This document shows, one piece after another, positions 1,433 through 54,100 of a stretch of 64,000 bases of DNA. This DNA is from an uncultured Planctomycetia bacterium (GTDB lineage Bacteria; Omnitrophota; Gorgyraeia; Duberdicusellales; 4484-171). Numbering within the stretch: position 1 is the first letter of the stretch; each line of letters opens with the position of its first letter. Both the position numbers and the translations under genes were made by a program. The notes under the pieces are model-generated. The model made no database searches, was not told where the DNA came from, and saw nothing but the letters and a program-made list of their open reading frames with translations. Where the stretch lies: assembly GCA_964629655.1 (NCBI GenBank), contig CAZVQU010000002.1, positions 524,878 through 588,877 on the forward strand, given 5' to 3'.

Positions 1433-1451
1433 AACAATTTCCGCCTTCTCT

Positions 1452-1838: not shown

Positions 1839-1877
1839 CCTTCTCCCTCCCCTGCCAGCAGACAGGCTTTCCTTTTG

Positions 1878-1905: not shown

Positions 1906-1922
1906 GAAAAGGGTTTTAAGCC

Positions 1923-37596: not shown

Positions 37597-38505
37597 CTAA
37601 TTAAACAAATGACAATAGACAAAGTGGCCGGGCTCAACCTCTTTTCTTATAGATTCCTGCTTGCATTCAGGTTTTTTAAGCCGACAGCGCGAGAAAAAAG
37701 GACAACCGTCAAGACGATCAATATCTTCTTTTAAGTATTTTAGCTTCTGCTGAGAAGCTTGTTTTAGTAATTTGGTGTAAGGATGAAGCGGATTATCATA
37801 GATTAAATTCCTGGGGCCATATTCCATGATTTTGCCCCGGTACATAATAAAGCAATAGTGAGATATCTTCTTTAATAATTTAAGGTTATGAGAGATAAAC
37901 AGAAAAGTTACTCCTAACTCTTTCTGCAACTTAATCAACAGCTTCATAATTTTAGAAGCTGTTGTAACATCTAGGCTCGATGTTGGCTCATCAAGAATCA
38001 CTAACGGCGGCCGGTTAATAAGGCTACGAGCGATACAAACTCTTTGAATTTGTCCGCCGCTTAGCTGATGCGGTACTCTCTCGGTTACATCCTCATCTAG
38101 TTCCACCTCGGCTAAAGCTTTTTTAATAAGCGCTCTGCTTTCGGATTTGGTTATTTTTTTATAAACAGTTAAAGCCTCATATAAAGAATAAAATATAGTA
38201 CAGCGGGGATCAAGGCTGGCAAAAGGATTTTGAAAAACAATCTGAATATTCTTACGTATGACTTTCTGGTCCCTTGGCAAGGCTATATCCTTGTCCTTAA
38301 AATAAATGTTCCCTGCTTTAGGCCGATAAAACCCTAAGATTGTCTTAGCTAAGGTAGTCTTACCGCAACCACTTTCGCCGGCTAGAGAAGTCACTAACCC
38401 CTTTTTTAAAAAGACGTCTACCCCATCTAAAGCCTTAACAGTCTTGCCTTTCTGCAAGAAATGAACCTTTAGGTTCTCTGTAGTTAAAATTTTATAATCC
38501 TCCAT
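37597..38505 (-). CDS. oligopeptide/dipeptide ABC ATP-binding protein (OppF/DppF-like)
   Basis: Walker A GESGCGKTT; signature LSGGQIQRVCIARS; C-terminal oligopeptide-ABC extension with Cys cluster. Confidence 0.8.
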   Translation of the reverse strand: MEDYKILTTENLKVHFLQKGKTVKALDGVDVFLKKGLVTSLAGESGCGKTTLAKTILGFYRPKAGNIYFKDKDIALPRDQKVIRKNIQIVFQNPFASLDPRCTIFYSLYEALTVYKKITKSESRALIKKALAEVELDEDVTERVPHQLSGGQIQRVCIARSLINRPPLVILDEPTSSLDVTTASKIMKLLIKLQKELGVTFLFISHNLKLLKKISHYCFIMYRGKIMEYGPRNLIYDNPLHPYTKLLKQASQQKLKYLKEDIDRLDGCPFFSRCRLKKPECKQESIRKEVEPGHFVYCHLFN

Positions 38506-38509
38506 CGGC

Positions 38510-39295
38510 TTATCCTTCTAACTGGGAAAATGAGTCTAGCAAACTCTTAGTGTAATCATCTTGGGGATTTGCAAATAGCTCTTCTCTTGGCTTTATCTCT
38601 CTGACCCTGCCCTGATAAAGAACTACCACCCGATCACACAAGGTTTTTACCAAATCAAGGTTGTGGGTGATAAAAATTATAGTTAGTTTAAGTTCATCTC
38701 TTAGCTCTTTGAATAAATGAACTATCTGACTTTCAATAGTTACATCCAAAGAACTTGTAGGTTCATCAGCGATTAATATAGTCGGCTTTAAAGCTATGGC
38801 TACGGCAATAGCTATCCTCTGCAATTGCCCGCCGCTTAACTGATGCGGATAACTCTTTAATATTCTCTCCGGCTCTCTGACTCTAGTTTTTTCTAAGCAA
38901 TCAAAAATGATTTTTTCTCTCTCACCTTTACTGTTTATATTTAATTTGCTTTGAAGAATCTCTTGGAATTGATAACTAATGCTTAAGACCGGGTTAAAGG
39001 TACTAGCCGGCTCTTGAAAGATTAGACCGATTTGATTGCCCCTTAAGATTTCTGATTCTTTTTCTTCTGCTTTGAAGATATTTTTGTTCTGAAAAATTAT
39101 CTGACCCTCGGCCTTGCTGTCAGAAGGGAGAAGATTCAAAATTGAAAGGGCAAGAGTGCTCTTTCCGCTGCCGGATTCACCGACTATACCTAAGATTTCA
39201 CCCTCTTTAACTGTCCAGCTAACCTTCTTTAGGGCATCAACGTATTTGGTTTTGCTCTTGTAAGAGACCCTTAAATCTTTTACCTCTAAAATCAT
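38510..39295 (-). CDS. oligopeptide/dipeptide ABC ATP-binding protein (OppD/DppD-like)
   Basis: Walker A GESGSGKST; signature LSGGQLQRIAIAVA. Confidence 0.8.
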   Translation of the reverse strand: MILEVKDLRVSYKSKTKYVDALKKVSWTVKEGEILGIVGESGSGKSTLALSILNLLPSDSKAEGQIIFQNKNIFKAEEKESEILRGNQIGLIFQEPASTFNPVLSISYQFQEILQSKLNINSKGEREKIIFDCLEKTRVREPERILKSYPHQLSGGQLQRIAIAVAIALKPTILIADEPTSSLDVTIESQIVHLFKELRDELKLTIIFITHNLDLVKTLCDRVVVLYQGRVREIKPREELFANPQDDYTKSLLDSFSQLEG

Positions 39296-40347
39296 AATAT
39301 CCTTCTTTTAGGGTCTAATATATCCCTTAAACTATCTCCCAACATATTAAAACAAACAACCGTAACTACGATAAATAAACCGGGGACTAAAATCCAGGGA
39401 AAGAGACGAATATTTACTATACCCATGGCTGAACTTAGTAGGTTTCCCCAGCTTGCTTCCGGCTCCTGGATTCCTAAACCAATAAGGCTTAAGCCAGCCT
39501 CACCTAAGATGTAAGCCGGTATACGCAAGACTATGGCTACCAGGGCATAAGAAAGAGTATGAGGAAGGATATGACGAATGATTATTTTAAAATGGCTAAG
39601 ACCGATTGCTTTGGCAGCATAAACATATTCATTCTCACGCAAGGATATAGCCATACCGCGGATAATACGAGCTGTAGCAGCCCAGCCGATAAAGGAGAGA
39701 ATAACTATAATTAAAAGATAGACTTGAGTCGAAGTTAAATTAGGGGGAAATGATGCCCGCAGAGCCAGCATAAGATAAAAAGAAGGAATCATCATTACCA
39801 TCTCACAAATCCGCATAGTAAAGTTATCTACCCTTCCGCCAAAGTATCCCGATAAGCCTCCGATGATTAAACCGATGAATAAAGATATGGCAGCACCGAT
39901 TAATCCTATCGAGAGTGAGATCCTTCCCCCATAGAGAATACGAGTGAAGATATCTCTTCCCTTTAAATCTGCTCCTAAAAGATATATTTTGCCTTTGCCC
40001 ACACCGAATAGATGTCGGTCAGTCTCCCAGAACCCTAAAAGCTTATACTTAAAGCCTTTGGTGAAGAATTTAATCGGGTAGATCTTACTCTTATCTTCCT
40101 GATAAACTCTCTGGTAGTACTGATTACTCTTATAGGTCTGTCGATAAATGAACGGTCCGAATTGTCTCTTCTCAAGGTTTAGAAAATGTATCTTTGTCGG
40201 CGGTGCATAGGAGTGCAAGACGTCGTCGTCATCGTAAGGATAAGGAGCAAAGAAAGGGGCAAAAATTACTGAAAAATAAAGCAAAACCAAGACAAATAGG
40301 GCTATCCGGCCTATTTTATTCTTGATAATTTCTTTTAAGATTCTCAT
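39292..40347 (-). CDS. oligopeptide/dipeptide ABC permease (OppC/DppC-like)
   Basis: BPD_transp_1 fold with ~6 TM helices and N-terminal OppC-type extension. Confidence 0.8.
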   Translation of the reverse strand: MRILKEIIKNKIGRIALFVLVLLYFSVIFAPFFAPYPYDDDDVLHSYAPPTKIHFLNLEKRQFGPFIYRQTYKSNQYYQRVYQEDKSKIYPIKFFTKGFKYKLLGFWETDRHLFGVGKGKIYLLGADLKGRDIFTRILYGGRISLSIGLIGAAISLFIGLIIGGLSGYFGGRVDNFTMRICEMVMMIPSFYLMLALRASFPPNLTSTQVYLLIIVILSFIGWAATARIIRGMAISLRENEYVYAAKAIGLSHFKIIIRHILPHTLSYALVAIVLRIPAYILGEAGLSLIGLGIQEPEASWGNLLSSAMGIVNIRLFPWILVPGLFIVVTVVCFNMLGDSLRDILDPKRRIL

Positions 40348-40350
40348 AGT

Positions 40351-41328
40351 TTAAGTCTTCTCGTATCTTATTCTCGGGTCAAAGTAAGCAAGAAGAATAT
40401 CAGCAACTAAATTACCTAAGATAAGCAAAGCTCCTCCGGCTAAAACTGAGCCCATAACTAAATATATATCTTGGGAACGCACAGCCTCCAAAGTTACTAC
40501 CCCTAAACCCGGCCAGCCAATAATAATCTCAACTAAGGCAGCTCCGCTTAAAAGAGCAGAAAATTGATAACCAAAAATAGTAATCATCGGATTTAAAGCA
40601 TTCTTTAAAGCATGAACATAAAGAATTCTCACCTTTGGAAGCCCTCTGGCTTTTGCTCCTAGGATATAAGGAGAACCTAAGACCTCTAGGAGATTTGCTC
40701 TCATTATTCTCTGGAGGACACAAATACTTCCCAATGAGAGAACTAAGGTAGGAATGATTAAGTGCTTTCCAATATCAATTATCTTACCGAGAAGGCTAAA
40801 TTCCTCAAATCTTATCGAGCGCATCCCTCCTAAAGGAAGCCAACCGGTAAAAGTAGCCAGATAAAGAAATATAAAGGCCAAGAAAAAAGAAGGGGCAGAT
40901 ATACCCAAATAAGAAGTAAACGATAAGAATCGATCAGTGAATTTATTTCGCTTTAGGGCAGCGATTACCCCTAAAGGAATAACAAATATCCAGGTAAAGA
41001 TAAGTGATGATAATGAAAGTATAAAGGTGTTAAAGAGGCGGGATGAAACAACATCAAAGACTTTAGCCTTAAAAGAAAACGAATAGCCAAAATCTCCTTT
41101 TAGGATATTTCTTAGCCATACGAAGTATTGAACCATAAGAGGCTTATCAAGATGAAACTTTTGCTCATATAGCTGGATAGCTTCTTGGGAAACCTGGGGA
41201 TTAAGCCTTAATTTGTCTAGGAAATCTCCGGGGGCAATCTGGATAAAAAGGAATGTAAGGAAGGTTATCCCTAAGAGTAAGGGCAAGGAAAAAATTAGTC
41301 TTTTTAAGATAAAACGGCCCATAGACAA
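40351..41328 (-). CDS. oligopeptide/dipeptide ABC permease (OppB/DppB-like)
   Basis: BPD_transp_1 fold with EAA-like loop; 325 aa. Confidence 0.8.
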   Translation of the reverse strand: MSMGRFILKRLIFSLPLLLGITFLTFLFIQIAPGDFLDKLRLNPQVSQEAIQLYEQKFHLDKPLMVQYFVWLRNILKGDFGYSFSFKAKVFDVVSSRLFNTFILSLSSLIFTWIFVIPLGVIAALKRNKFTDRFLSFTSYLGISAPSFFLAFIFLYLATFTGWLPLGGMRSIRFEEFSLLGKIIDIGKHLIIPTLVLSLGSICVLQRIMRANLLEVLGSPYILGAKARGLPKVRILYVHALKNALNPMITIFGYQFSALLSGAALVEIIIGWPGLGVVTLEAVRSQDIYLVMGSVLAGGALLILGNLVADILLAYFDPRIRYEKT

Positions 41329-41375
41329 TGACTGGGAAGAGCCCCCTTGGCTAAAGCTTCGAAGATAAAAAGCGT

Positions 41376-41675
41376 TTACACAACCATTGCCAGAGGGAAA
41401 ATCGCCGGTTTATGAAACCTTATTCCTGCTTGCCACTCATCAGGAGTTTTACCACACCAGCGTACAATCCCTTTTAACAACAAAGGTTTATCAGTATTAG
41501 TGCAAAGGTCTATACGTAAATGGGTACCTTCGGGTAAGGCTTCAGCGCTAGTTAACCCGGCTCCGGCTGCACCTATGTCATGACATTTAATTCCCATAGG
41601 CGTATTGGTGTTGCCGACACACGAGCCTAGCAAAGCACAGGAATACCTCTCAAATGTTCTTTTCTCTCTAACCAT
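41376..41675 (-). CDS. small PilZ-domain protein
   Basis: REKRTFERY (RxxxR) followed by DIGAAGAGL (DxSxxG-like); 99 aa. Confidence 0.5.
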   Translation of the reverse strand: MVREKRTFERYSCALLGSCVGNTNTPMGIKCHDIGAAGAGLTSAEALPEGTHLRIDLCTNTDKPLLLKGIVRWCGKTPDEWQAGIRFHKPAIFPLAMVV

Positions 41676-41727
41676 TAAATACCACCTTTTTCATTCTATC
41701 ACAGTTCATATTTTTTTTCTACCATTA

Positions 41728-42126
41728 TTAGCTATCTTGCCACCAAATTTCCTTTCTTAGCTGATCACCAAAGTTGCTATCGAGATATGAAAGGATTCTT
41801 ACCCTATCCATGTCCCTTATTTTTGTAAATATAATACCGCTATAAGGGATATCTTCTGTCCTCTTCGCCCAAACTACCTTACCTAAAGCATCAATCTCAC
41901 TGGGTTCACCAGGAATATTAATAATTAACTTTACCTCCTCTCCAACCAGTGGGATGCTTGGCGAGCTTATCATAATCCCTTTTAAACTTAAATCCAGTAT
42001 TTTTGCTTCCCAAACCTTATTAGAAGTTGGAAAGGTATAGTCTAGAGGTATATCCACTCCCCAACGATACCCCATTCTTGTTTGATCCCTTCTTTCTTCT
42101 CTTCTCTCTTGTTTCATCTCTCTCAC
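41728..42126 (-). CDS. small PilZ-domain protein, GTG start overlapping the giant-gene stop (GTGA)
   Basis: R-rich N-terminus (RREERRDQTR) followed by ILDLSLKGIMI (DxSxxG); translationally coupled to the giant ORF. Confidence 0.5.
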   Translation of the reverse strand: MREMKQERREERRDQTRMGYRWGVDIPLDYTFPTSNKVWEAKILDLSLKGIMISSPSIPLVGEEVKLIINIPGEPSEIDALGKVVWAKRTEDIPYSGIIFTKIRDMDRVRILSYLDSNFGDQLRKEIWWQDS

Positions 42127-45100
42127 TCCTCTTCAAAAGTATCCCCGCTTTCCGAGTCAGGCCTAAAGAAAGGATCTGATTTTACCATTTTCGCTAGCAA
42201 GATCCACAATGATAACGGAAAACACAAAAGCCCTATCCAAGAATATACTTCGGGCACGGAAAAAGCCTGTAATAAAATATTATCTTGTGTTGTCTGAACA
42301 AATAGATCAATTTGACCTCCAATAAGCAATTCCGTAATAAGTATACTTAAGAGGGCAGCTGCAGGAAATATAGCTGCAGTTTCTAAAGCAATTCTTATTG
42401 CTCGCGTCTTTACGACATGCTTGATAGTTATGAAAATCGCTATGCCTAGAACAAATCCAACTGTTGCAATAATAATAGTCGTGCTACCTGAAGAACCAAA
42501 TTTAGATATCGTATGGTGTATATTTGAAATATGGAATGTCTGCCCTAAAGAAATATGAGGGTCGGTTAAAAGATAGTTTAAAGGAGCGTATCGCTCGGAG
42601 TGGAGGCTTTTTTCAATTCCAAGCAGACCTCCAGGAATCCACTGCACAAAAAGAGAAATAGCGCTCAACGGGAGAACAAAACCCAAAAATTGTACAATAC
42701 GACTTATATTACGCTTTAAACTTACAAATGATGCCATCGGAGAGGCGGCGGTGGCTTCATTCCCCACCGGCGAGCTGCCCCGTCGAGACTTTGTGCGTAC
42801 TACATCCGGGCTATTCGCTTTACGGACAGAATAAATCGCTGTTGGCGCAGACTCAGTGTTGTTTTCGATATTGGCCAGATATGTCCTTCCTCGAAATATT
42901 TCGGCAGTCACATCCATTTTTCCTTTTAACCTAAGAATATCTTCAGCTGCATCTAACGAATCCCCAAAGGCAGAATTCCAAACCAAGGCAAGGCCATCTG
43001 GCTTAAGAAGTGTTGGAAGACCCTGGGCAAACCGCCTCAAAATGGCCCCGTCATAATCATTATCCTCCCACTCCTCAAGGCTCTGACGGACTCTAGGACC
43101 GTCTGGGTAATACGTTGGCATATTCCAAATAATCCGATCAAATTTTTTATTGAAGACAGGCGTTCCCTCTGCAGAAATAATATTGTCATGTATCTTAGCT
43201 TCTACTTTAAAACCCGCAAGTCTACCAGACGCTCTTGTATTCGCAACTTCAAAAGGATTAATGCCGACGGCATAAATCTTTCGTGCTGTCCGCAATGAAA
43301 CAAACCAGGCGTCAAGGCCGTTGCCTGAACCACCGACTAAAACATCATGATCTTTGCGGACATCAAGTTTTTGGTTGACCGCCCTTAGATACTCCCAGTC
43401 GCAAAGAGAGTTTGATCCCGGATGATAGACAGTAGGAAAAACAGGGAGAATAGCATGATGCATATGGGCAGGATCTACTTCATTCAGAATAGACCCCCTT
43501 TCAACCTCTAAGCCGAATTTACTGGTATAAAATGGGTTGATATAAGGAAATCGTTCTTTCTTCTCAACCGTTACATAGATATACGGAACCCAGCGCGGCC
43601 GACGTTCAATCGCTCCGACAATCCCCCTCCGTTCTTCATAGGCAATTAAAGCTTTGTCTGTTTTCTGTATAACCTCAATAAAAGCATTCCATTTTGCCAC
43701 AGCCTTGGGATCACCCAACTGAGGCACGTCAAAATAGTATTCGCTGAAGTCCAGGTAGTGCGGTTTTCGCATCTTCTGATCAACCTGATAGCTGGCAGGG
43801 AGGACCGGATAAATGGCAATAAGATAGCCACGGTTGTCATACACAAGCTCATGATCTGTCGTATCAAAAAGCTCATAGGGTAGGATCTCTAATCCCTTCG
43901 GGGCTTTGTCTTTTTCTTTCAATGCAGGAACACGAATTCTATGAATTCTAAGACCATTCTCTTTTGTTGTGGAGATAAGCAGGGATTTATGAAGCTCCAA
44001 AACAGACAAGATATCCCAAGCAGGCATCCTTTTGACTTTTCCTGCAGCAGATTTATTCGAGCCTAAGGATGATCTCGATTGCTTCGACTCCACCGGCGAG
44101 CTGGACTGTACTTCCAATTTTGTTGGTTCTCTTTGAACATTGATTCTTGTGTCAAATTCTTCCGAAATCAGAAAAGTTTCATTAGCTGAAGAAACAATCA
44201 CAGATACTATTTTTTCAGTAATGTCGCTCATTTCTGGATGCTGCAGAACATTATAAATAATAGTTTCTATGCCCGGCCAGAAATCTTTCCCCACGAATTT
44301 CAAATCATGCCGTTTGAGCGCTGCTTCTAAGGTGTCAACGATAGTTTGTTTGCTTAGATCTAAAACCTCGATCAGAACTTCTTTTTTTAACTCTTCGAAT
44401 TTTTTTCTCAACTCTTCATCTTGACCTTTCGAAGCTATCAATTGTTCACTCAACCTTCTGCCGATAAATATGAACGGTGTAGTTTCTCTCGAAATAGATA
44501 AATCGCCCTTAACATAGAACCAATGCCACTCTTCTTGATCCGGTAAGCCATAAATATGCCTAGCAAGATCTTGGTTGGATAATGCATTAAATGCTGCCGT
44601 GGGTAGAATGACTATGTAGCCCCCGTTGTCAACATCTGTATAAACCTGAATATCTTCCGCCTCATTACCAATCCACATAGACTTATCATCTCCGGGAGGA
44701 GCAAACTTGCTACGCAAAATAGAAGTCATAAAATCATCTCCTTTAGCAAATCTTGCTAAAACGAGATTCTCTTCTGGGTCTTGACGAACATAGCAAGAAC
44801 CTGGGTAAGGCACGTTTGCAATTGGCTCCCTTCTTGTTCTAGACCGTATAAAATCAAATAATCTCATCGCTTCTTCTCTTGTAAGAGCAGGCTTTAACGC
44901 ATCTACAAACGCCTGCTCAAAAGCATCCCCGCCTTTGATATAGCTTAGGGAAGCTAACCTTTTTGCCGCATTCCATAACTCCTGTAATATTACCTTTTCT
45001 ACTCCCAACGGCGAGCTGGTTTGTAGACTGGTTGTTGTTGTATTTTTTTGCTGACCCAGCACCGAGCTGTCCCGGATTGAATCATCATTTTGAAGCCTTC

Positions 45101-48100
45101 TCTCAACCTCCGAGAATAACTTTCTGTAAAAACCATCACTACAAACCAATGTCTCTACATGTCCAAGACCACTCCCAATAAAGCTCATTTCAGCAGCTGC
45201 CGCAGGATACCAGTACTTTTTAACTATTTCGCTTGCTATGCATACTATAGTAGATTTTCCTATGCCATACCCTAAATGAGCAGTAGCGGTATCTACACTA
45301 ATAATAATCGTACTAAAATACATCCAGTATTTGAGAAATTTCTCTTGTCCATTTCTTAACATTGATCCCGAAGGTAAAAGAAACACCCAATCTCTGAACT
45401 CTCTGCCCAGATAACGATAGAAATCATCATAAGAATAAAATCTACCATCCAAACTCTCTATCGTTAAAGCAGTTTTCATTCCAAAGTTTTCTGCTAAAAA
45501 CCTTGCTATTCTTACACTACTTTTCCAATCCAGACTACGAGCCTTACTTTTTGACCTGCCATTAATAAAAATAAAATCTTCGCCTATTCCAATACCTATG
45601 TTTTCCAATTCTCTTCTGGCCACAATGCTTTCTTTGCTACCGTGATTAATAAATAAAGAATTGGAAGGATAGCCCATTAAGGATAACCCTAATTCATGAC
45701 CCAGATTGAAATCACGATAATACTGACAGTGCCTTATGCTTGCATTCTTACCACTCAATTCCCATATATGTCTATAATTTCTGGCAAGGCCTGGCGGAAG
45801 TAACAAATCCTCATGACTTAAAATAGCTAAATCAAATTCAGCCATCCCATTAATAGCTCTTATTGTATTATCCCAATTACATTTCCCGTTATCTTTTAAT
45901 ACAGGCAGAGGGATAAACATTTCTCCCTGTTTTTCCCAAATAAAGGGATTTCTGGTAACCATAGTTATCCTTGCATGAGGATACGCTACTAAAAACTGTG
46001 CTGACAAAGGTCCATTGAATATAATCTCATCACCGATATGTCTTTCGGGCATGAAGAATAGCACTTTATTTAATTCTCCATACCTTTCCCGCATAATTAC
46101 GCGTAATCGTTCAATACTCCTTCCGCTCATCACCGACGAGCTAGATTTTGTACTGCCTATCAATAATAATTTCGTGATTCCTAAGTCAGCTTTGACAACT
46201 TCTAGTTGGATCTTGGATAATCTAAACTTTTCATAAAAAATCTTACCCCAGAGCATCTGCTTCATAATATCTTGAGATAGTGGATGTTTAAGCAAAAGTG
46301 GGCATAAATTTTTTAGTAATTCCTCTATAAGTGTAGTCTGTGCAAGTCCAAGGCTAATCTGTCCTTTATCATCTTTCAAATAATTGTATTCATCCCTGTA
46401 AAAAGTTAACCACCTTCCTAATTTTATATCCTCTTGACTAAAATTTGGTGAAAGCTTAGTGAATTCTTCTGCTAAGGTAATTATCGATCTAATCTCTTCA
46501 ATGAATGCTTTAACTTTAATATTAAAAGGGAGTTCTTCAAACCGTTCGCCTATCCGTAAACATATAGCTGAAAGCATGCCTCTTTCTTTTAAAAGGATAA
46601 AATTAACCAGGTCGATCCATAAAGCACCCTCGTCATCAACATGACCAACCATAAATACCCCTTTTCTTCTTTCGCCTGTCTGCATATCTTTCAAGAAAAA
46701 GATCCAGCGAGTACAAATCCGTTCATCTTGCCATTCCCGTAAAATATTTTTCTTATGTCTATTGATTTGTTCTTTCGATAACTCTCTTTCTTTGTTTGTT
46801 TCTAAATCAATTTCCTCTAACTTAGTATGAACAACCATTTCATCGCTTAGCTCTTCTAAGCTCGTAGAAAATTCCAATTGAAATTTCTTACCATCTTTTG
46901 CAGTAATGATCTCTTTATCCATCCCTCTAACAGCCATAAGAATAGTTTCGGTACACTTTGGTAAAGTTAACTGCATAAGACAGTCGATAATACTTATTTT
47001 TGAACGGATTTCTTGCTCAGGATAGATGCTATATCGGCCCACCATTTGTTCAGGCGATAATCTTGCCTCTCGATCTGCCTCTATCCCATTTAGCTCTTTT
47101 TGCCAAATTTGTCTACAATCTTCTAAAAATTTATTTACCTCTCTTCCATCATTCACTTTAAGAAAGTTTTCCAATAGCCAATCAAATGAATCCTGGAATA
47201 AACTGAGTGTCTCTAACTCCTGCTCAATAAACCTCGCTACGAAAACAACTCTGCTTTCATTCCATATTACTTCTCTCAATTTTGTTTTCATGATCCCTAT
47301 TTCTTTATCAGTGATATGTCCCTCAATGGCACTGACTAACCGTTTGTCTAGACATCCTAGGGGATTTAGAAAACGTACATATTCTGCAACAATATCGGAA
47401 TCTATCCTAACCTGAACGCTAAATAATGTGGGAACATTGATATGCACTAATGGCGACCGGTTTTGTAAATCCGCTATCAATTGTCTCATTTCAATTTCAG
47501 TCATAGATGCCTCTTCTAAATCCTCTACTAAATTAATACAATCTTCTTGCGCAGGAAGTAGAAGCACCTTTTGAGCCTCACTGCTATCTTGCAATGCTTC
47601 AGGTGTAACTTCATCAATCAGCCCCCACTCTACGTATTTATCTAATTGCTTAACGCTTAATGTACGTGGTAAAGTCAAATTTTCTATAATTTTACTTCGC
47701 AGTGTCTTTTTGGCTTTTTGTTCACTAACTTCTGCCACCGACGAGCTGGTTTTCGCAGATTTACACACAGGTAAATCGCAGCGAACGGACTTTCCGGATA
47801 AATTATTAATCGCTTCTAAATATTCATTAAGTAAGTCTCCATTTTGAGAATCATTATCGCGCCAAACAGAAAGTTGTTCCTTAGTAAAAGAGTGTATGGA
47901 TTTTCTTTCAATATCCACAGATACTGCTTCTTTTAATATAGGGGCATTCTTCCCTACAACCGAAATACCTCCTAAGACTTCTTGAGTTAATCCATAATCT
48001 TTGCTAAACTTCTCAGCAAAACTACTCCTAATCTGCCTAAACAATTTGGCAATATTCCTAGTGAATTCTCCACATAAAACAAACATAGCATCAATGTCTG

Positions 48101-51100
48101 AATCTATAGCACATGTAGTTTTAACAGTTGAACCGAACATAAAAGACTTGTTCTTATCAACCGAGGTAGGAACCATCTGTTCAAATTTTCTCAAAATTGC
48201 AATCACTGCAATAACATTGCGTAAAACCTCTCTGCTTTGGCCCCATTGTAGTTTTGTACCCCACCGATAGCCCCCCTTATACTGTATAGTGTAATAAGTT
48301 GCCGGGAACTGATACAATGACGAGAGTAATCTGGCTTCTAGCCCAAAATCAAAAGTTTCTGAAAGACTTCTTCCTTTTACCTTAACCGATGAGCTGGAAA
48401 GGTCTCCAACAATTCTAGCTGATGGTTGTTGCTCCATCCGCAGATCATTAATGCGCTGACTCTTTGAGGACTCATCCGATGGCAGGGTTATTGTAAATGT
48501 TGTTCCTCTATCCTTTTGACTGGCAACATCTATTGCCCCGCCATGTTTTTCAATAATACCTTGCACAATCGACAACCCTAAGCCGGTTCCTTTATGTTTT
48601 TTTGTGGTAAAGAACTTTTGAAACAACCTTTTCTGCACTGACTTTTCGATCCCGCTACCATTATCGCTAAAGGTTATTCTGATGCTTGCCTCTATTTTTT
48701 TAACCGCAATGGATATTTCTGGATTATTATTGCCTTCCAAGGCATCAATAGCATTGCTGATAAGATTTAAGAAAATAGAAAATATATCATTTCTGACAGA
48801 ATATATCCATATATTAGAAGCGATATTAATCTCTACTTGCATATTATCTTCTTTCACTTTATGCCCAAACAACTTGGCTATGGTATTAATCTCCTCCATT
48901 AAATTAAAAGATTCCTTTTTAGGAGCTTTGCCGTTAGCACAGCGAATTAGATCAGCAAGTATCCTCTTTATCCTGTACAACCTACTTACCGTAACACGAA
49001 CTAACTCATCGCAACATTTAATAATATCTTTTCCGTCTTCTTCATCGCAGGTCATTTGCGCTAATTGCATTGTTTCTGACATGGATGATAAAGCATTCTT
49101 AATATCATGAGCTGCGGTTAGCGCAGGATCTCTTATGACAACGGGAATCCCTTTTCCTTTAGTAGTAAGCCATTCTTGAACAATTTTATTGGTGTCGCTT
49201 ACAGCAGCAGTTATATGACTAAAGTGAGCTTCTGCCCCAACAAGAGTAATCTGGCCTGCCTCTATATCCTTTTCTAAAGCGCTTATAGGCCTGCCTATTC
49301 TCATCGTATGCCTCTTTAGCATCTTTACTGAGCTAAGCACCCACTCTTTAGCCACCTTTGACGAGCTAACCCCAACAGCTGAAGAAATCGAAGAACTACC
49401 CCCAGCCGCTATCCTTATTGCTTTACTTATAATCCTATTGGCCCCATCTATATCCTCTGTGGCTTTCTGTACAGCGCTAGAGCTTTGTCTTGAATCGTGC
49501 CCACGTCTTTTATCAACTAAAGATACATACGAGATGGTATGCCCTTCGGGAGGATAGGGATGCGGAAAGCCTAATTTTCCAAAAGCAACACCTTCCTTGA
49601 TGTCCCTCTGCCAATATAGCTGATCCTCTGGCAACCCCAAGAATTCCTCTTCAAACTCATAGATAAAACTCGTAGCCGCACTAACATAATAGTCATATAG
49701 CCACTGCGGGGTATAGCGTAGATTAGCAATGCCAAAAAGCTTATCTCTGAGCCTGGTCAAGACTCGTAAATTCTGAGGATATTTATCGGAAATCTGGCTG
49801 TAGTCAAAAAGGACAACTTCACCCATTAGGTTACGGCCGTAGTTAAACAGGTAGAAATCACTGTTAAAAACCCCTCTGCGCCACTCTGCTAAAATCGCTT
49901 CGAAGTACGCATCAATAAGCCTTTCGCCTTCTTCTGGAGAAACTAGGTATAAAAGACCTGCGCTCGTTTCGTCGGCATCGCCCAATACCTCAACAAATTC
50001 TTGGATTACCCTATTCCCGTGAATAAATATCTTGGCGCCGACACCATCCAGACGCTCTCGAGCAATTCTCAATTCATTCCTCGCCCAGATAGCAATGGAC
50101 TCGCCATCCATAAGCCACTTCTCCACAAGACAAGTACCACTGACCAAAAAGACCCTGTTAAAAACTGAGCCGCTATTGCTTATCAACAGCCTGTTTTTAC
50201 GGCGTAGCGCCCTCTTCAGTAAAATCCGCTCAATCCCCCTTGCACTGTTTTCTGCTTGTACCGTTGAGCTGGACCTTACTTGTGTCTTGCATTTCTCCAA
50301 ATCATCAAGTTGACCGAATGTGTTATCCCGACGAACAGACTGTATACGCTTTAGATGAAAAATTACGTATCTTGTTACTATCCACAGGAAAAGTCTTGGT
50401 AGAAACGGGAGATAATAATAGTTTGTTTTTAACACTCCTTCATCTTTGTACATAAATAGTGGTGCATGCCAATCCTCAAAATCGTCAATTTCAATATCAA
50501 ATCCTTGTTTCTTAATTTGGTTTCTTAGAAAATCTACTTTTGGCCCAACAGCAAGCTGGTATGACGGTGCGTCTGTATATCCTTTTGCATTAGTCAGCAT
50601 TTTGGCGACTTTTAAAACTAACGCTATGGATAAAGAAAACCCTGATAAAACCAAACCAGGTATAAAACCGATAAACCAGACGTTTTCAAATTTGGCGGCG
50701 GCAAAAGCCATTAAGGAAGCAACGGATAATCCAATTAAAAAATAGTACAGTCCGCTTCTGAACAAAACCCTTGAGGATAGTAAATCCCTAGGTAATTCGG
50801 CCAAATCTTTCACCGGCGAGGCGGCAGTAACAGAAGTCTCAAGGGGTATTAGACTGGCGCGCTTAAGCGCTTCTAAATAGACGCCATGATATTCGGGCGA
50901 ATCAAAATCAAATGAACAATTATCTTTGCTGCTTGTCCATTTATAAAGCTGGCTCCCCAGAGGGTCTGAATATTGCTGAGTACTAAAACCAAGTATTTTT
51001 CCATCAGGCACTATATCTAAATGCGAAAATTCTGAAGCATTATCTTTGTATGGACGAATAAGCAACTCGCCATTGCTTTTAAGCTTTGTGGAAAGGACTT

Positions 51101-54100
51101 TTAGCTTTAAGGAATTGATAATCGGCCTATTTATCTTAGAACCAGAACCAATAACTACTATTTTATCAAAAGAGTTATTTGGAAAATGTTCAAACATATC
51201 ATTTACATCGGCCCGAATAGTTACTACATTCTTATTTTCCAAAGCTCTAGCCATTTTCTGTGTAGGTAATATTCCTCTTTCAAATTGTTCTGCAAACTGA
51301 TAATAAGGCGCGCTATAGATATCGCTGATAATAAAGGCCTTATTGGGATGTGCTTTTGCCAGTACCGCTTCAAAACAAGTTTCTCCACTTGCAACAAATA
51401 TAATCAGTTCATCCATTCGCTGGAGCAGTAGTGAAGCAGGATCTAGAAAATCCACCACTTTTGAAATTGCTCCAGCATCGTTACCTTGCTGCTCTAAATA
51501 TGCCTTTGTCCTAACAATAGGACTAGCCCCGCCATTTGCCGGGCTTAACGAACCCGGCGAGCTGGCCCCTCTGATACTCCCTACGCCATCAAAAGTAACT
51601 GCCCCGCTGACAAACTCATCGTTGAGATAACCCTCAAATCTCCAGGCTAACTCATTTTGAATAGTCCAGTCGTCAGCATTAGGATCATTGATAAGGCCGG
51701 AAATGGTTCGAGGACAAATGCTCTCTCTCCTGATAACATCCTTTTTGCCAGATGGTCGGTGAAACATCCTATTTTCTGTGCCTCCCCGAATCGCCGGAGA
51801 AACAGCCCCTTCTGGAATATTGACTTTACGAGGAACCTTCTTTAGTGTCATTATTACCAACTTTTCTGACCTTAGCTTTTCTACTGATACATGGTTATCA
51901 ATTCTCCAGTGTTTAGACCTATGATGGCCTCTCCTTTTTCGTTCTCTCCTACCCATAACCCTAGAAAGCTCGAATTTTTTAATACTATCTATTGCTAATG
52001 TTCTAGAATCGTTCAAGCTAGCAAGTACGGTTTTGATCTGACGTCCAGTTATATAAATGACAGAAAGAGCATTTATATTGTCAGGATTAAGGTACATATG
52101 TACTTCTTTGATAAATCTTTCTAGCGTGCAGTATTCTGGATCGTAAAAAGCATGGTCCAGGCTGCTAATTGAATCGGATTTCGGTTCATTCCAATGCTCA
52201 AACCAAGGAGGAGAGAATGTAATCTTATCGAAAACTATACCTGGGCTTATTTTTTCGAATAAATCTGATTCTATTACATCGGACACTAATCCAAACTCTC
52301 TATAATTTTCCCTGGCCAAATTGACTGCTTCCGGATTAATATCTACACCGAGTACATAAGATCGCCCTAATTGATAAGCCTTTATTCCTATGATTCCACT
52401 GCCTGTACCCATATCTAAAACTCTATCACCGGGCCCAATAATATTCTCCAACTCCCAGGCGAGTAATTCACCCATCTGGACATTATGGTAGTGCGGATCC
52501 AAGACTGCTGGACTTACCCATAGTCGTCCCCCGATAACGGGGATATATTTTCTCTTCCAGCCGTTGAGAGAATCAACCAGCGAGCTAGAACTAGTAATTT
52601 TATCTTTGATCACATTTTCCAAGCGTGTTCTCCAATTAGCAGCCTGGATATTGACAAAGTAAGGTAGTTCTCCAAAAACCTTCTGATCTTTATTGTCTCC
52701 AATAATAATGGTATCACCTTGCAATGATAGTTCTTTATCTCTTGCGATAAATACATCTGATAACGTTTGACCGCTAAAGTAGTCCTGGCTATCCAATTCA
52801 AAGTAATTTGCCATTATAACTTCAAATTGCCCTTGAGTTAAAATACCCTCTTCTTGTATTCTTTCAAGGTACGCCTCAATAACTTCTCCAACACCAACAG
52901 AACATATACCGAAAACGCAGTCAGGATTATGCTCGAGAATTATTCGCACAGCCTCATGGAACTCCGGATTCGGTTTAATGCGAATGACTATCTCATCAAG
53001 ATGTATTTCTCTTAAAAGCATCCTGTAAAACGTAGCTTTATTTCCTGATGTTGGGAATCTGTTAGAGTAAAGCCTCAAAGCAGCCAACTTTACAGTATCA
53101 GCTGCAAGCATGATAGAATAATAGATTTTACCTATTGGGCTTGCTTCCTCTATCCTCTCAAACCGCAGCGCAAAAAATGCTCCTGTAAAAGCTCTAGAAA
53201 TATAGGCCATTGTTTGATCGAAATCAACGACGACGCCCTTAAAGCCACGAAAGCGCTCCTTAACTAACTTTCTTGTAAGCGTTCCTTTCCTAGTACACAC
53301 CGATGAGCTGGAATAAGATTGAACGGAAATTCTTTCAGATTCACTTAGTATCTGCCGCAATGAATTCTTAATATTCCTCGCTTCATCTTTATGCCCCCTG
53401 CGCCAAGGAATGATATTTCTATATGAACCCGGCCTATAAGAGATTATTTTAGGCTTATACCGTAAAACACGCTCCAAAGAAGCATTAAGCGTAGCCTGGC
53501 CCTGATCGCTCCAAAACTTGGCTAAGGAATGCTCAAGCGCAGATAAGCTTAAACCGCTTTCCGCCTTGTGCTTGCTGACAATGGCTTTCGTAATATATTG
53601 GATAATTTTCGCTACTTCATAAATCTCACGGATTCTCGCAAAACCATATTCAATATGCATATACTCTTGGCCAGAGATGGAAACGTTTTTCGCCCTATTT
53701 TTACGGATTGAAGCTACTTTGACCCCATTTTGTATGCCATCATTACTGATAAAAGCTATTACTGCGGCTAACATTAATTTCGATGCCTCTTTCTTAACAC
53801 CCCATTCATGAAATCGATCCCAATCTTTTCTAGGTATTCCTAAATTAAACTGTACTGAGTGAGTATCGCTATTGGGAATATTTGTATACTCGAGAACAGT
53901 TTTAGCTAATAAATCGATTTGGGTTCTAAAACTCCAGGATGGACGAAAATTAAATTCTAAATATCCAAAAGGATCTCTATAGAAGGGTAATACGTCAACT
54001 CTCTCCCTAATGGTCTCATCAGAAATCCTGGACAATATATCTTCTTTTGTTTTATACTTTCTGCGTAATTCAAGTTCTCCGCCAATTGGCATTCCCAGCC

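What the first reader, a model, noticed from the sequence alone, without database searches (positions are those of the whole stretch)
41376..49280. Signalling hardware wired into the giant gene: embedded GHKL/histidine-kinase ATPase plus two translationally coupled PilZ genes
The giant ORF contains a complete HATPase_c module with N, G1, F and G2 boxes but no canonical H-box. Its TGA stop overlaps the GTG start of a PilZ-domain gene (GTGA at 42123-42126). A second PilZ gene follows 52 nt later. PilZ domains are c-di-GMP receptors, so the two PilZ paralogs may control the giant enzyme array or gate the downstream transporter. No GGDEF or EAL gene is in the window. A third PilZ gene (1073-1432) sits beside a PAS/GAF kinase and response regulator.
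Basis: partly seen in the sequence, partly recalled or inferred. Interest (0 to 1): 0.6.

Follow-up and report, generated by a model that had tools for sequence, protein, structure and literature searches.

The report
PilZ pair behind an Omnitrophota giant gene
Two small c-di-GMP receptor (PilZ) genes and an embedded histidine-kinase module sit at the end of a giant multi-enzyme gene of an Omnitrophota-type bacterium; the sequence features are real, but this layout has already been described for these giant genes, so it is a new example and not a discovery.

Summary
The minus-strand ORF 42123-63947 (7,274 aa in the window, at least 8,774 aa on an identical contig) carries a HATPase_c domain at 48474-48791. 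Two PilZ genes (41728-42117, 41376-41675) follow it, then oppBCDF. A third PilZ gene lies beside a PAS-GAF kinase and a receiver.

Two details are wrong. An H-box is present (AAHDIKNALSS, His4947) and aligns onto the phospho-His of ZraS. pilZ2 most likely starts at ATG 42117, 5 nt after the giant stop, not at the overlapping GTG.

In 13 related loci pilZ2-pilZ1-oppBCDF-lysS is conserved. The gap to the giant gene ranges from -4 nt to 5.9 kb, and the giant 3' regions are unrelated.

West-Roberts et al. 2023 already report pilZ genes and binding-protein-dependent transporters downstream of most Omnitrophota giant genes, and HATPase_c among their commonest domains. This is therefore a new member of a known kind.

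Most likely reading: PilZ2 is a MapZ-like stand-alone c-di-GMP adaptor and PilZ1 a divergent paralog. The partner is not established: synteny favours the Opp transporter, and the giant protein or its secretion apparatus is possible.

Side leads: a palindrome and duplicated pilZ2 5' ends mark a cassette hotspot, and Ser-rich linkers delimit the giant's modules.

The parts
42123..63947 (-). Giant multi-enzyme ORF. 7,274 aa lie in the window and the N-terminus runs off the window at 64000. Pfam finds glpX-like FBPase, HD, xylose-isomerase-like TIM barrel, SAM methyltransferase and HATPase_c.
   Evidence: At least 8,774 aa on the identical contig L001. Sequence identical in 6 assemblies.
48399..49352 (-). 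Histidine-kinase module (aa 4866-5183) between two Ser-rich linkers. The DHp+CA core is aa 4936-5161 (48465-49142).
   Evidence: PDB phmmer: ZraS 9jfj E 6.4e-23, YF1/FixL 4gcz, KinB 3d36. NCBIfam AtoS/ZraS-like, below equivalog cut-offs. Linkers.
49083..49115 (-). H-box AAHDIKNALSS. The phospho-acceptor candidate is His4947 (codon 49107-49109), and the motif fits H-[E/D]-x-x-N.
   Evidence: Aligned on the H-box of ZraS, FixL and KinB. Pfam HisKA is only 13.7 bits, below its 26.9 cut-off.
48474..48791 (-). HATPase_c catalytic domain with N, G1, F and G2 boxes.
   Evidence: Pfam PF02518, E 2e-25 / 3e-26. Box positions.
48078..48134 (-). Pol-beta-type nucleotidyltransferase motif GSx(11)DSDID, in the next module downstream of the kinase.
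   Evidence: Weak Pfam NTP_transf_2 hit, E 0.016. Motif read directly.
50616..50750 (-). Pair of hydrophobic, TM-like segments (aa 4400-4444) about 420 aa upstream of the kinase module.
   Evidence: Kyte-Doolittle 19-aa scan, peaks 1.88 and 2.07. This is a heuristic only.
42183..42707 (-). C-terminal cluster of about 4 TM-like segments (aa 7081-7255) that ends the giant protein just before pilZ2.
   Evidence: Kyte-Doolittle scan, peaks 1.9-2.6. Sequence shown.
42115..42131 (-). Junction GAGGAG-TGA-GAGAG-ATG. It holds the pilZ2 Shine-Dalgarno sequence, the giant stop (42123-42125), the alternative GTG (42124-42126) and the likely pilZ2 ATG (42115-42117).
   Evidence: Relatives keep AGGTGAG(G/A)GAGATG, with the same TGA, even where the giant gene ends kilobases away.
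41728..42117 (-). pilZ2: 129 aa from the ATG (132 aa from the GTG). RxxxR = R14-R18 (42064-42078) and DLSLKG = D42-G47 (41977-41994). It folds as a beta-barrel plus a C-terminal helix.
   Evidence: Pfam PilZ E 4.6e-14. Motifs invariant or nearly invariant in 24 homologs. AF2 pLDDT 82. Foldseek hits BcsA-PilZ, MotI, MapZ, PlzD, Alg44 and YcgR.
41376..41675 (-). pilZ1: 99 aa, a divergent PilZ. RxxxR = R6-R10 (41646-41660) and DIGAAG = D33-G38 (41562-41579), with Ser replaced by Gly. Conserved Cys13/19/31/58/74 and His32.
   Evidence: Pfam PilZ 31.5 bits against a 22.5 cut-off. 17-sequence alignment. AF2 model unusable, pLDDT 39.
37597..41328 (-). oppB (40351-41328), oppC (39292-40347), oppD (38510-39295) and oppF (37597-38505): permeases and ATPases of an Opp/Dpp/Nik-family ABC importer. 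No substrate-binding protein gene is in the window.
   Evidence: Pfam. NCBIfam hits are all below equivalog cut-offs. 80-98% aa identity to relatives.
1073..4616 (-). Separate signalling operon: PAS-GAF-HisKA-HATPase_c kinase (1923-4616), REC-only protein (1452-1838) and PilZ3 (1073-1432; KRGFMR and DISMKG motifs).
57993..58379 (-). HD domain of the giant protein (aa 1857-1985). It carries H / HD / H / HH / D ligands and a C-terminal ADxxxxxxxxRPY motif, is HD-GYP-like, and lacks GYP.
   Evidence: Pfam HD E 1e-7. The best PDB match is the HD-GYP enzyme V-cGAP3, 5z7c, E 1.6e-4. Sequence.

Best explanation
This is the 3' end of an Omnitrophota-type giant multi-enzyme gene locus (the 'Archaeovorin' / multi-enzyme class) with its usual downstream genes.

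Shown:
1. One module of the giant protein (aa 4866-5183), set off by Ser-rich SSSxV linkers, is a sensor-less class-I histidine-kinase transmitter core. It has a DHp helix with His4947 in an H-D-x-x-N H-box and a complete CA domain.
2. The giant ORF ends in a cluster of about 4 TM-like segments. Five nucleotides later pilZ2 begins, with its Shine-Dalgarno sequence inside the giant's last codons. pilZ1 follows after 52 nt and oppBCDF after a further 47 nt, with no terminator-like site between them.
3. PilZ2 is a stand-alone PilZ with conserved RxxxR and DxSxxG motifs and a MapZ-like barrel-plus-helix fold. PilZ1 is a shorter, Cys-rich paralog with DxGxxG.
4. pilZ2-pilZ1-oppBCDF-lysS is conserved in related populations. 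A giant gene is always upstream, but at variable distance and with unrelated 3' sequence.

Inferred:
- PilZ2, and perhaps PilZ1 acting as its partner, binds c-di-GMP made elsewhere. GGDEF modules are reported in many such giant proteins, but none lies in this window.
- Like MapZ, MotI or YcgR, it then docks on a protein partner.
- By synteny the most likely partner is the adjacent SBP-less Opp-type importer, probably its OppD/OppF ATPases. That would tie uptake of prey-derived peptides or muropeptides to the c-di-GMP state.
- In this strain the pilZ genes are probably also co-transcribed and translationally coupled with the giant gene.
- The kinase module is an independent signalling or regulatory module of the giant protein. 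It probably acts as a dimer, after processing or by pairing of two giant chains, and it has no demonstrated link to the PilZ genes.

The confidence of 0.6 combines two levels: about 0.9 for the identity of the parts and for membership of the known locus type, and about 0.35 for the Opp transporter being the partner.
For: - Domain calls.
- H-box and DHp+CA alignment to ZraS, FixL and KinB.
- PilZ2 motif conservation in 24 homologs (R14, G16, R18, D42, G47 invariant; S44 at least 90%).
- PilZ2 model pLDDT 82, with Foldseek hits exclusively to c-di-GMP-binding PilZ domains at E 1e-5 to 1e-3.
- PilZ1 alignment.
- Junction sequence and ortholog starts.
- No terminator-like site in 41000-43000.
- Synteny. 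pilZ2-pilZ1-oppBCDF is present in L008, L009, L010, L011, L012, L014, L016/L017, L018 and in L023, L024, L025, L027, L028, L029, L030.
- Giant genes of 36,007, 14,105, 25,848, at least 9,555 and at least 4,885 aa end 103 nt to 5.9 kb upstream of pilZ2.
- Neighbours are 80-98% identical, but the giant 3' ends share nothing.
- Omnitrophota affiliation comes from MAG locus L007.
- Published precedent. West-Roberts et al. 2023, sections 8 and 11 and Fig. 7C, report pilZ and binding-protein-dependent transporters downstream of most giant genes, and list HATPase_c and GGDEF among common domains. [quoted passage not shown]
Against: - No binding or interaction data exist. The partner assignment rests on gene order alone, in a compact genome where about 20 same-strand genes follow each other, so adjacency is weak evidence.
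- No precedent for a PilZ protein controlling an Opp-type importer turned up in one open-access literature search.
- pilZ2 can be separated from pilZ1/opp: by a Fic gene in L008 and by HEAT/PD40 genes in L013, and extra pilZ2 copies occur in L025 and L026.
- PilZ1 lacks the motif serine, and its fold could not be modelled.
- No c-di-GMP synthase or EAL gene is in the window.
- The kinase module has no nearby receiver and no close relatives (about 30% identity at best), so its activity is unproven.
- TM calls are from a hydropathy heuristic only.
Confidence: 0.6

Rival explanations
1. The PilZ proteins regulate the giant protein itself or its export. c-di-GMP, possibly made by GGDEF modules of the giant protein, is read by PilZ2 and PilZ1. 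They then dock on cytoplasmic modules or the C-terminal membrane anchor of the giant protein, or on the GspE/PilB-type ATPase of the T2SS/T4P-like system encoded upstream of giant genes. The analogies are the PilZ domain of BcsA at the membrane face and PilZ-PilB in type IV pilus assembly.
For: - A giant gene lies upstream of pilZ2 in every locus with enough upstream sequence.
- West-Roberts et al. propose this link.
- In this window the giant ORF ends in a TM cluster 5 nt before pilZ2.
- The top structural hit for PilZ2 is the BcsA PilZ domain, which follows the last TM helix of BcsA.
- The weak best sequence hit is Xanthomonas PilZ of type IV fimbriae, E 0.68, not significant.
Against: - PilZ2 is 71-84% conserved, yet the giant 3' regions, including the C-terminal anchor, are unrelated between close relatives. 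A conserved docking site at the giant C-terminus is therefore unlikely.
- The distance to the giant stop varies from -4 nt to 5.9 kb.
- No GGDEF domain and no secretion ATPase lie in the window.
Confidence: 0.3
2. There is no dedicated coupling. The PilZ genes are general c-di-GMP effectors that happen to lie in a long co-directional housekeeping cluster (opp, lysS, lolED, ilvE, mcsAB, clpC). The giant gene, and the cassettes between it and pilZ2, are insertions into a hypervariable site next to that cluster.
For: - The conserved block extends through lysS-lolE-lolD-ilvE-mcsA-mcsB at 73-93% identity.
- The region upstream of pilZ2 is a hotspot with variable cassettes and duplicated pilZ2 5' ends.
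- A third PilZ gene and two other two-component pairs in the window show that such genes are common in this genome.
Against: - West-Roberts et al. report the pilZ-after-giant-gene pattern across the phylum, not only in this genus.
- The pilZ2 5' leader is copied onto the cassette genes, which suggests shared regulation and not mere proximity.
Confidence: 0.2
3. The embedded HATPase_c is a pseudokinase or a GHKL ATPase of another kind (an anti-sigma-type Ser kinase, or a chaperone- or MutL-like ATPase). This is what the first reader's 'no H-box' remark implied.
For: - Pfam HisKA reaches only 13.7 bits against a 26.9 cut-off.
- There is no sensor domain, no adjacent receiver and no close orthologs.
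- Within the H-box, Glu is replaced by Asp and the usual Pro by Ala.
Against: - A full-length DHp+CA alignment to 20+ solved histidine kinases places His4947 on the phospho-acceptor His.
- The H-[E/D]-x-x-N motif and all of the N, G1, F and G2 boxes are intact.
- The His-to-N-box spacing of about 118 aa is typical of histidine kinases (own knowledge).
- The best NCBIfam hits are AtoS, PnpS and ZraS, from the H-box to the C-terminus.
Confidence: 0.1

Closest known systems
Omnitrophota giant-gene loci ('Archaeovorin'-type / multi-enzyme giants): West-Roberts et al. 2023, bioRxiv 10.1101/2023.11.21.568195; Nielsen & Lui 2026, bioRxiv 10.64898/2026.06.07.730766
   Same: - A giant ORF tiled with metabolic and regulatory enzyme domains (FBPase, methyltransferase, HD, HATPase_c) and with TM segments.
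- It is followed immediately by small pilZ genes and then by binding-protein-dependent transporter genes.
- The giant sequence is extremely divergent between relatives.
   Different: - The part seen here is at least 8,774 aa; its full length is unknown, and the papers focus on proteins of >=10,000 or >30,000 aa.
- The transporter here belongs to the Opp/Dpp/Nik family and has no binding-protein gene nearby, whereas the 2023 paper describes carbohydrate import systems.
- No GGDEF domain, SecA-like domain or upstream T2SS can be seen within the window.
MapZ (PA4608) of Pseudomonas aeruginosa, a stand-alone PilZ adaptor (PDB 5xly, 5y4r, 1ywu)
   Same: A single-domain protein of about 125 aa with an N-terminal RxxxR loop, a six-strand barrel carrying DxSxxG and a C-terminal helix. 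The structural match covers the whole protein (TM 0.65-0.69).
   Different: - Sequence identity is only 17-19%.
- MapZ's partner is the chemotaxis methyltransferase CheR1, and no CheR gene is here.
- PilZ2 belongs to a paralog pair and sits next to an ABC importer.
PilZ domain of cellulose synthase BcsA (PDB 4p00) and MotI/DgrA (5vx6)
   Same: These are the best Foldseek hits (E about 1e-5). They share the c-di-GMP-binding barrel. In BcsA the PilZ domain follows the last TM helix, as pilZ2 follows the giant protein's TM anchor in this strain.
   Different: In BcsA the PilZ domain is fused to the enzyme it gates. Here it is a separate gene, and the adjacency to the giant gene's end is not conserved.
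NtrB/ZraS/AtoS-type class-I histidine kinases (HisKA + HATPase_c)
   Same: A DHp helix with H-[E/D]-x-x-N, and a CA domain with N, G1, F and G2 boxes. It aligns with ZraS at E 6e-23.
   Different: - It is embedded 4,900+ aa into a giant polypeptide.
- It has no PAS/HAMP or periplasmic sensor and no cognate receiver next to it.
- The H-box has Asp and Ala where Glu and Pro are usual.
- Identity to any known kinase is only about 30%.

Membership tests
PilZ domain c-di-GMP receptors (PF07238) | Profile match above Pfam's gathering score | tested here: met
   PilZ2 53.0 bits, PilZ1 31.5 bits and PilZ3 57.5 bits, against a cut-off of 22.5.
PilZ domain c-di-GMP receptors (PF07238) | N-terminal RxxxR motif | tested here: met
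   PilZ2 has R14-M-G-Y-R18, with R14 and R18 invariant in 24 homologs. PilZ1 has R6-T-F-E-R10, with R10 invariant and R6 at least 90%. PilZ3 has R5-G-F-M-R9.
PilZ domain c-di-GMP receptors (PF07238) | D/NxSxxG motif about 20-30 residues after RxxxR | tested here: inconclusive
   Met in PilZ2 (DLSLKG: D42 and G47 invariant, S44 at least 90%) and in PilZ3 (DISMKG). Not met in PilZ1, which has DIGAAG: Gly replaces Ser in 15 of 17 family members, and only 2 have Ser.
PilZ domain c-di-GMP receptors (PF07238) | Six-stranded beta-barrel fold | tested here: inconclusive
   PilZ2: AF2 pLDDT 82, six strands plus a C-terminal helix, and the 47 best Foldseek PDB hits are PilZ domains. PilZ1: model pLDDT 39, unusable. 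PilZ3 was not modelled.
PilZ domain c-di-GMP receptors (PF07238) | Actual binding of c-di-GMP | not testable with these tools
   Needs ITC, DRaCALA or a co-crystal.
Class-I (HisKA-type) histidine kinase transmitter | HATPase_c domain with N, G1, F and G2 boxes | tested here: met
   PF02518, E 3e-26. Boxes located at aa 5059-5128.
Class-I (HisKA-type) histidine kinase transmitter | DHp domain with a phospho-acceptor His in an H-box | tested here: met
   His4947 in AAHDIKNALSS aligns with the H-box His of ZraS, FixL and KinB in full DHp+CA alignments (E 6e-23 to 2e-18). The Pfam HisKA profile alone is below threshold, at 13.7 against 26.9 bits, so the H-box is divergent but present.
Class-I (HisKA-type) histidine kinase transmitter | Cognate receiver domain (two-component partner) | tested here: not met
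   No Response_reg hit in the 7,274 aa seen. The two REC-only genes in the window each sit beside their own kinase. The unseen N-terminal part was not tested.
Omnitrophota giant-gene locus (West-Roberts et al. 2023) | Giant ORF with many enzyme domains and TM segments, in an Omnitrophota genome | tested here: met
   At least 8,774 aa with FBPase_glpX, HD, AP_endonuc_2, methyltransferase and HATPase_c domains and TM-like segments. A 450-aa module is 56% identical to a giant ORF of an Omnitrophota MAG. Syntenic relatives carry giants of 14,105-36,007 aa. Taxonomy is inferred, not read from the source record.
Omnitrophota giant-gene locus (West-Roberts et al. 2023) | One or more small pilZ genes immediately downstream, then binding-protein-dependent transporter genes | tested here: met
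   for the window; for relatives.
Omnitrophota giant-gene locus (West-Roberts et al. 2023) | T2SS/T4P-like secretion locus upstream; SecA-like and C39/S8 peptidase domains in the giant | not testable with these tools
   The 5' end of the giant gene and its upstream region lie outside the window. The NCBI source contig could not be retrieved.
Opp/Dpp/Nik (PepT-family) ABC importer | Two BPD_transp_1 permeases, two ABC ATPases with an oligo_HPY tail, and a family-5 substrate-binding protein | tested here: inconclusive
   The permeases and ATPases are present. All NCBIfam equivalog scores are below cut-off, so the substrate is unknown. No substrate-binding protein gene is in the window or in the relatives' loci.

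The most novel reading that the evidence does not exclude
The stretch between the end of the giant gene and pilZ2 is a dedicated cassette-exchange site.

- A 21-nt palindrome (GGTTGAGG-N5-CCTCAACC) occurs in frame inside giant genes, at a conserved junction peptide (..WLRTVLNRE..LFRIRLN). It also occurs about 20 nt upstream of the pilZ2 ribosome-binding site.
- Recombination at these palindromes, and in the first 19-57 codons of pilZ2, would swap giant-gene 3' ends. It would also stack lipoprotein (TPR/PD40) cassettes, each inheriting the pilZ2 leader and therefore its regulation.
- On this reading, the arrangement in this window, where the giant ORF reads straight to the conserved TGA 5 nt before pilZ2, is the 'empty' or fused state of that site.
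- An alternative reading of the same element is an undescribed structured RNA leader or operator that controls pilZ2-pilZ1-opp.
Probability: 0.2. Interest if true: 0.65.

Novelty: new member of a known kind. Interest (0 to 1): 0.33.

Why it matters
Giant Omnitrophota genes are among the largest known genes, and how they are regulated, exported or processed is unknown. The conserved pilZ pair is one of the few handles on their regulation. This locus adds a clean, multiply assembled example. It also refines the published pattern in four ways:
- The invariant unit is pilZ2-pilZ1-oppBCDF, not giant-pilZ.
- PilZ2 keeps a canonical c-di-GMP site under selection, while PilZ1 has a systematic Ser-to-Gly change plus conserved cysteines.
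- The embedded kinase has a real H-box and sits in a linker-bounded module.
- The gap upstream of pilZ2 is a recombination hotspot.

None of this overturns current views. It gives testable partners (OppD/OppF against giant modules or the secretion ATPase) for a c-di-GMP pathway in an uncultivated predatory or episymbiotic lineage.

Tried and rejected
- Single genome-contig scan with the giant C-terminal 600 aa. It returned only one locus (L007), which shares just one 450-aa module, so it was useless for pilZ synteny.
- tblastn of the whole giant protein against the relatives' loci. Only a 40-90-aa junction peptide matched. The kinase module is not in the last 10 kb of the relatives' giant genes.
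- HMMER search of the kinase module against 1.84 billion representatives. Only generic sensor kinases at 26-40% identity were found, with no orthologous module.
- PDB sequence searches with the PilZ2 and PilZ1 profiles. Nothing was significant; the best hit was Xanthomonas PilZ at E 0.68.
- AF2 model of PilZ1. It came out at pLDDT 39, so no fold search was run on it.
- Rfam on three relatives' loci at E<=1. No hits, so the pilZ2 leader is not a known riboswitch, including the c-di-GMP-I and -II classes.
- Promoter and terminator scan of 41000-43000. No terminator, and promoter-like sites were no more frequent than in shuffles.
- Attempts to reach the NCBI source contig (598,929 nt) for the giant gene's full length and 5' context, through exact look-ups of PilZ2 and LysRS.
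- Literature search for a PilZ protein controlling an ABC importer. No relevant precedent was found.
- My first reading of RRDQTR as the PilZ2 RxxxR motif was dropped. The alignment shows that the conserved motif is R14-M-G-Y-R18.
- The idea that the giant HD domain is a bona fide HD-GYP enzyme was downgraded. The metal ligands and the RPY motif are present, but GYP is absent and the match to V-cGAP3 is weak.

Full report
WHAT IS THERE. The window is dominated by minus-strand genes. An uninterrupted ORF runs from 63947 down to a TGA at 42123-42125 (7,274 codons). The reading frame stays open upstream to the window edge. On an otherwise identical Logan contig the same gene is called at 8,774 aa and is still cut by the contig end. 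The giant gene is therefore larger than the window shows. Six independent assemblies reproduce the last 1-10.7 kb of the gene, both small genes and the start of oppB with zero mismatches, so the junction is not an assembly artefact.

Pfam finds only scattered domains in the giant protein:
- glpX-type FBPase, about aa 159-299
- HD, aa 1857-1974
- xylose-isomerase-like TIM barrel, aa 2198-2451
- SAM methyltransferase, about aa 3830-3920
- HATPase_c, aa 5053-5158, E 3e-26

Downstream lie two PilZ genes, then oppB, oppC, oppD, oppF, lysS, lolE/lolD-like genes, ilvE, mcsA, mcsB and clpC.

THE KINASE MODULE. The statement that there is no H-box is not correct. A 306-aa query around the domain aligns from aa 4936 to 5161 with the complete DHp+CA cores of solved kinases: ZraS 9jfj at E 6.4e-23, YF1/FixL 4gcz at 1.2e-18 and KinB 3d36 at 1.7e-18. 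In these alignments AAHDIKNALSS lies on AHEIRNPLSS, and His4947 falls on the phospho-acceptor.

The motif keeps the H-[E/D]-x-x-N signature. It differs from the usual form by Asp for Glu and Ala for Pro, which is why Pfam HisKA scores only 13.7 bits. NCBIfam gives AtoS, PnpS and ZraS as the best but sub-threshold models. A full HMMER pass over 1.84 billion representatives found only ordinary sensor kinases at 26-40% identity. The module is therefore a divergent, orphan member of the class-I kinases.

No sensor domain and no receiver were found in the 7,274 aa. A recurrent Ser-rich motif, SSS-x(0-2)-V, occurs 13 times between aa 2464 and 6615, against 0.6 expected from shuffles (the DNA repeat families D1-D3 are its coding trace). 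Copies at aa 4861 and 5184 bracket the kinase module. The next module (5190-5400) carries a pol-beta nucleotidyltransferase motif. The protein thus looks like a string of linker-separated modules, and the kinase is one of them. A hydropathy scan suggests a TM pair at aa 4400-4444 and a cluster of about four TM segments at aa 7081-7255, just before the stop.

THE PILZ GENES. All three small proteins exceed Pfam's PilZ gathering score.

PilZ2:
- 37 homologs at 52-84% identity were recovered.
- In an alignment of 24, R14, G16, R18, W19, D42, L43 and G47 are invariant and S44 is nearly so. The functional motifs are therefore R14-MGY-R18 and D42-LSLK-G47.
- The AlphaFold model (pLDDT 82; six strands plus a long C-terminal helix) matches only c-di-GMP-binding PilZ domains: BcsA 4p00, MotI 5vx6, MapZ 5xly, PlzD 2rde, Alg44 and YcgR, at E 1e-5 to 1e-3.
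- MapZ is the best whole-protein analog.

PilZ1:
- Its family (17 sequences, 64-93% identity) keeps R6/R10, D33 and G38.
- It has Gly instead of the motif Ser in 15 of 17 members.
- It carries conserved Cys13/19/31/58/74 and His32.
- Its model failed (pLDDT 39).

PilZ3 has KRGFMR and DISMKG. It sits in a PAS-GAF kinase / REC-only / PilZ3 / VanZ-like operon.

No GGDEF or EAL domain occurs in any ORF of the window (regex).

THE JUNCTION. On the coding strand the sequence reads ..GAA GAG GAG TGA GAGAG ATG AAA... The GTG that overlaps the stop is one possible start. The ATG at 42117 is more likely: it has GAGGAG 8 nt upstream, and it aligns with the ATG of every ortholog, all of which share the leader AGGTGAG(G/A)GAGATG. 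Gene callers split between 132 and 129 aa. With a 5-nt gap and the Shine-Dalgarno sequence inside the giant's last codons, termination-reinitiation coupling is plausible in this strain. pilZ1 follows after 52 nt with its own AAGGTGG, and oppB after 47 nt. No terminator-like hairpin was found in 41000-43000.

COMPARATIVE EVIDENCE. Contexts of PilZ2 homologs and a metagenome scan gave 13 distinct related loci.
- Their housekeeping genes are very close to the window's: OppB 94-98%, LysRS 87-93%.
- PilZ2 (69-83%) and PilZ1 (65-85%) evolve faster.
- pilZ2-pilZ1-oppBCDF(-lysS-lolED-ilvE-mcsAB) is conserved in all but two loci. Exceptions and variants: a Fic gene between the two pilZ genes in L008/L009; HEAT and PD40 genes after pilZ2 in L013; extra pilZ2 copies in L025 and L026.
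- Wherever 10 kb of upstream sequence exists, a giant gene is there (36,007, 14,105, 25,848, at least 9,555 and at least 4,885 aa).
- That giant gene ends 103 nt (L018), about 570 nt (L010/L016), 4.6 kb (L008) or 5.9 kb (L011) before pilZ2.
- The last 10 kb of these giant genes share nothing with ours beyond a 40-90-aa junction peptide.
- An Omnitrophota MAG (L007) shares one 450-aa module at 56% identity inside an ORF that is open over all 21 kb fetched.

Three conclusions follow:
- The pilZ genes are a conserved fixture of the locus.
- They are most rigidly tied to the transporter.
- The tight coupling to the giant stop is specific to this strain.

COMPARISON WITH THE LITERATURE. West-Roberts et al. 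[quoted passage not shown] They report binding-protein-dependent transporters further downstream (section 11 and Fig. 7C). They list HATPase_c and GGDEF among the 20 commonest domains, and they report FBPase, methyltransferases and TM regions in 'Archaeovorins'.

Nielsen & Lui 2026 find PF02518 in 136 of 779 Pfam-positive proteins of >=10 kaa. In their data it sits in a co-occurrence module with methyltransferase and HD domains, and both of those domains are also found in our protein. They also recapitulate the flanking pattern.

The finding is therefore a further instance of a described arrangement. Its mechanism remains untested in the literature as well.

MECHANISM. Shown:
- The domain identities.
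- The conserved c-di-GMP-binding residues of PilZ2.
- The operon-like spacing.
- The synteny.

Inferred:
- PilZ2 is a MapZ/MotI-type adaptor that binds c-di-GMP and then a protein partner.
- PilZ1 is a specialised paralog. It may be a co-adaptor, or it may be redox- or metal-sensitive.
- By gene order the partner is most likely the SBP-less Opp-type importer. Its family is clear, but its substrate is not.
- The giant protein or its secretion ATPase is the main alternative.
- I found no evidence connecting the kinase module to the PilZ genes.

A weak additional lead concerns the giant's HD domain. It best matches the HD-GYP enzyme V-cGAP3 (5z7c, E 1.6e-4) and keeps the H/HD/H/HH/D ligands and the ..AD..RPY motif, but it has no GYP. 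It could be a cyclic-dinucleotide phosphodiesterase-like module, which would place c-di-NMP turnover inside the giant protein.

SIDE OBSERVATIONS. In relatives, pilZ2 is preceded by a conserved leader that contains a 21-nt palindrome, GGTTGAGG-N5-CCTCAACC. The same palindrome occurs in frame inside their giant genes, where it encodes ..ERLRTVLNRE... There it is followed by a second palindrome, GTTTAGG-N5-CCTAAAC, which encodes LFRIRLN.

In L010/L016 and L018 the internal copy and the pre-pilZ2 copy are identical over the 21-nt palindrome. Across 18 distinct copies, 88% of positions pair. The pair just outside my search pattern is a standard pair in 17 of 18 copies, spread over GC, AU and GU. 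The outer stem is paired by construction of the search.

In L008 and L011 the leader plus the first 19-57 codons of pilZ2 are duplicated in front of inserted lipoprotein cassettes (TPR, PD40). This leaves truncated pilZ2 ORFs, P0037 and P0038, the latter seen on 27 contigs.

Reading from the internal palindrome into the pilZ2 leader would stop at the same conserved TGA that ends our giant ORF (derived from the sequences). That is compatible with recombination at this site. Our window keeps only a degenerate copy inside the giant gene (55968-56024) and one exact copy at 695-715.

VERDICT. The pattern is already published. Interest is modest (0.33). The recombination/leader element is the most novel thread left open.

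Noticed in passing
L008 9955-9975, L010 9958-9978 and 5045-5065, L018 9957-9977 and 5684-5704, L011 329/5476/7611/9961; window 695-715 and 55968-56024: A 21-nt palindrome, GGTTGAGG-N5-CCTCAACC, lies about 20 nt upstream of the pilZ2 ribosome-binding site in relatives. It also occurs in frame inside their giant genes, where it encodes ..ERLRTVLNRE.. and is followed by a second palindrome, GTTTAGG-N5-CCTAAAC, encoding LFRIRLN. The top of the stem varies with compensatory changes. No Rfam family matches. The window has one exact copy at the 3' end of the VanZ-like ORF next to PilZ3, and a degenerate pair inside the giant gene. It could be an operator, an RNA hairpin or a recombination site.
   Followed up: partly
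L008 6636-6700 and 8780-8900; L011 5306-5488 and 7650-7895; L027, L028; proteins P0037, P0038: The pilZ2 leader plus its first 19-57 codons (..EQxRMGHRW..) is duplicated in front of inserted genes between the giant gene and pilZ2. In L008 these are PD40 and TPR lipoproteins, whose own signal peptide MNKKFLINYLICFLLLCGC follows the pilZ2-derived N-terminus. The duplications leave truncated pilZ2 ORFs that are widespread (P0038 is on 27 contigs). This looks like a cassette-insertion hotspot.
   Followed up: partly
window 44092-56565 (giant aa 2464-6615): The Ser-rich motif SSS-x(0-2)-V recurs 13 times against 0.6 expected from shuffles. It is visible at DNA level as the repeat CACCGACGAGCTGG on the + strand. 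It separates recognisable modules (kinase, nucleotidyltransferase, methyltransferase and others). The copies are candidate inter-module linkers or processing sites of a polyprotein. West-Roberts et al. note that cleavage points are unknown.
   Followed up: partly
window 57993-58379 (giant aa 1857-1985): The HD domain's best solved relative is the HD-GYP phosphodiesterase V-cGAP3 (5z7c, E 1.6e-4). The H / HD / H / HH / D ligands and the ADxxxxxxxxRPY motif are present, but the GYP motif is missing. It may be a cyclic-dinucleotide phosphodiesterase-like module inside the giant protein.
   Followed up: partly
window 41376-41675 (PilZ1) and alignment A2: The PilZ1 family has five conserved cysteines (C13, C19, C31, C58, C74) and His32. 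C31 and H32 lie directly before the Asp of the c-di-GMP motif, and the motif Ser is replaced by Gly. This suggests a metal- or redox-dependent PilZ variant.
   Followed up: no
window vs L008, L010, L011, L016, L018: Genomes whose LysRS (87-93%) and OppB (96-98%) are nearly identical to the window's have giant genes whose last 10 kb share no detectable similarity with ours, apart from a 40-90-aa junction peptide. This points to extreme turnover or mosaicism of the giant gene's 3' part within what looks like one genus.
   Followed up: partly
window 42183-42707 and 50616-50750: The giant protein ends in a cluster of about four hydrophobic, TM-like segments followed by an acidic tail (..DSESGDTFEEE). 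It also has a tight TM pair about 420 aa upstream of the kinase module. The calls come from a hydropathy heuristic only.
   Followed up: no
window 37597-41328 and relatives: The oppBCDF genes have no substrate-binding-protein gene in the window or in any related locus. In some relatives other genes are inserted: a nucleotidyltransferase/HEPN toxin-antitoxin pair after oppF (L008, L009, L014), or a bAvd/23S_rRNA_IVP-like gene between oppC and oppD (L014).
   Followed up: no
window 15104-16487: This is a second small two-component pair, a HisKA-HATPase_c kinase of 340 aa plus a REC-only protein of 126 aa. Both receivers in the window lack output domains.
   Followed up: no
window 41065 (inside oppB): Four independent Logan assemblies break at exactly this position. 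The break probably reflects co-occurring strains that share the nearly identical oppB but differ upstream.
   Followed up: no
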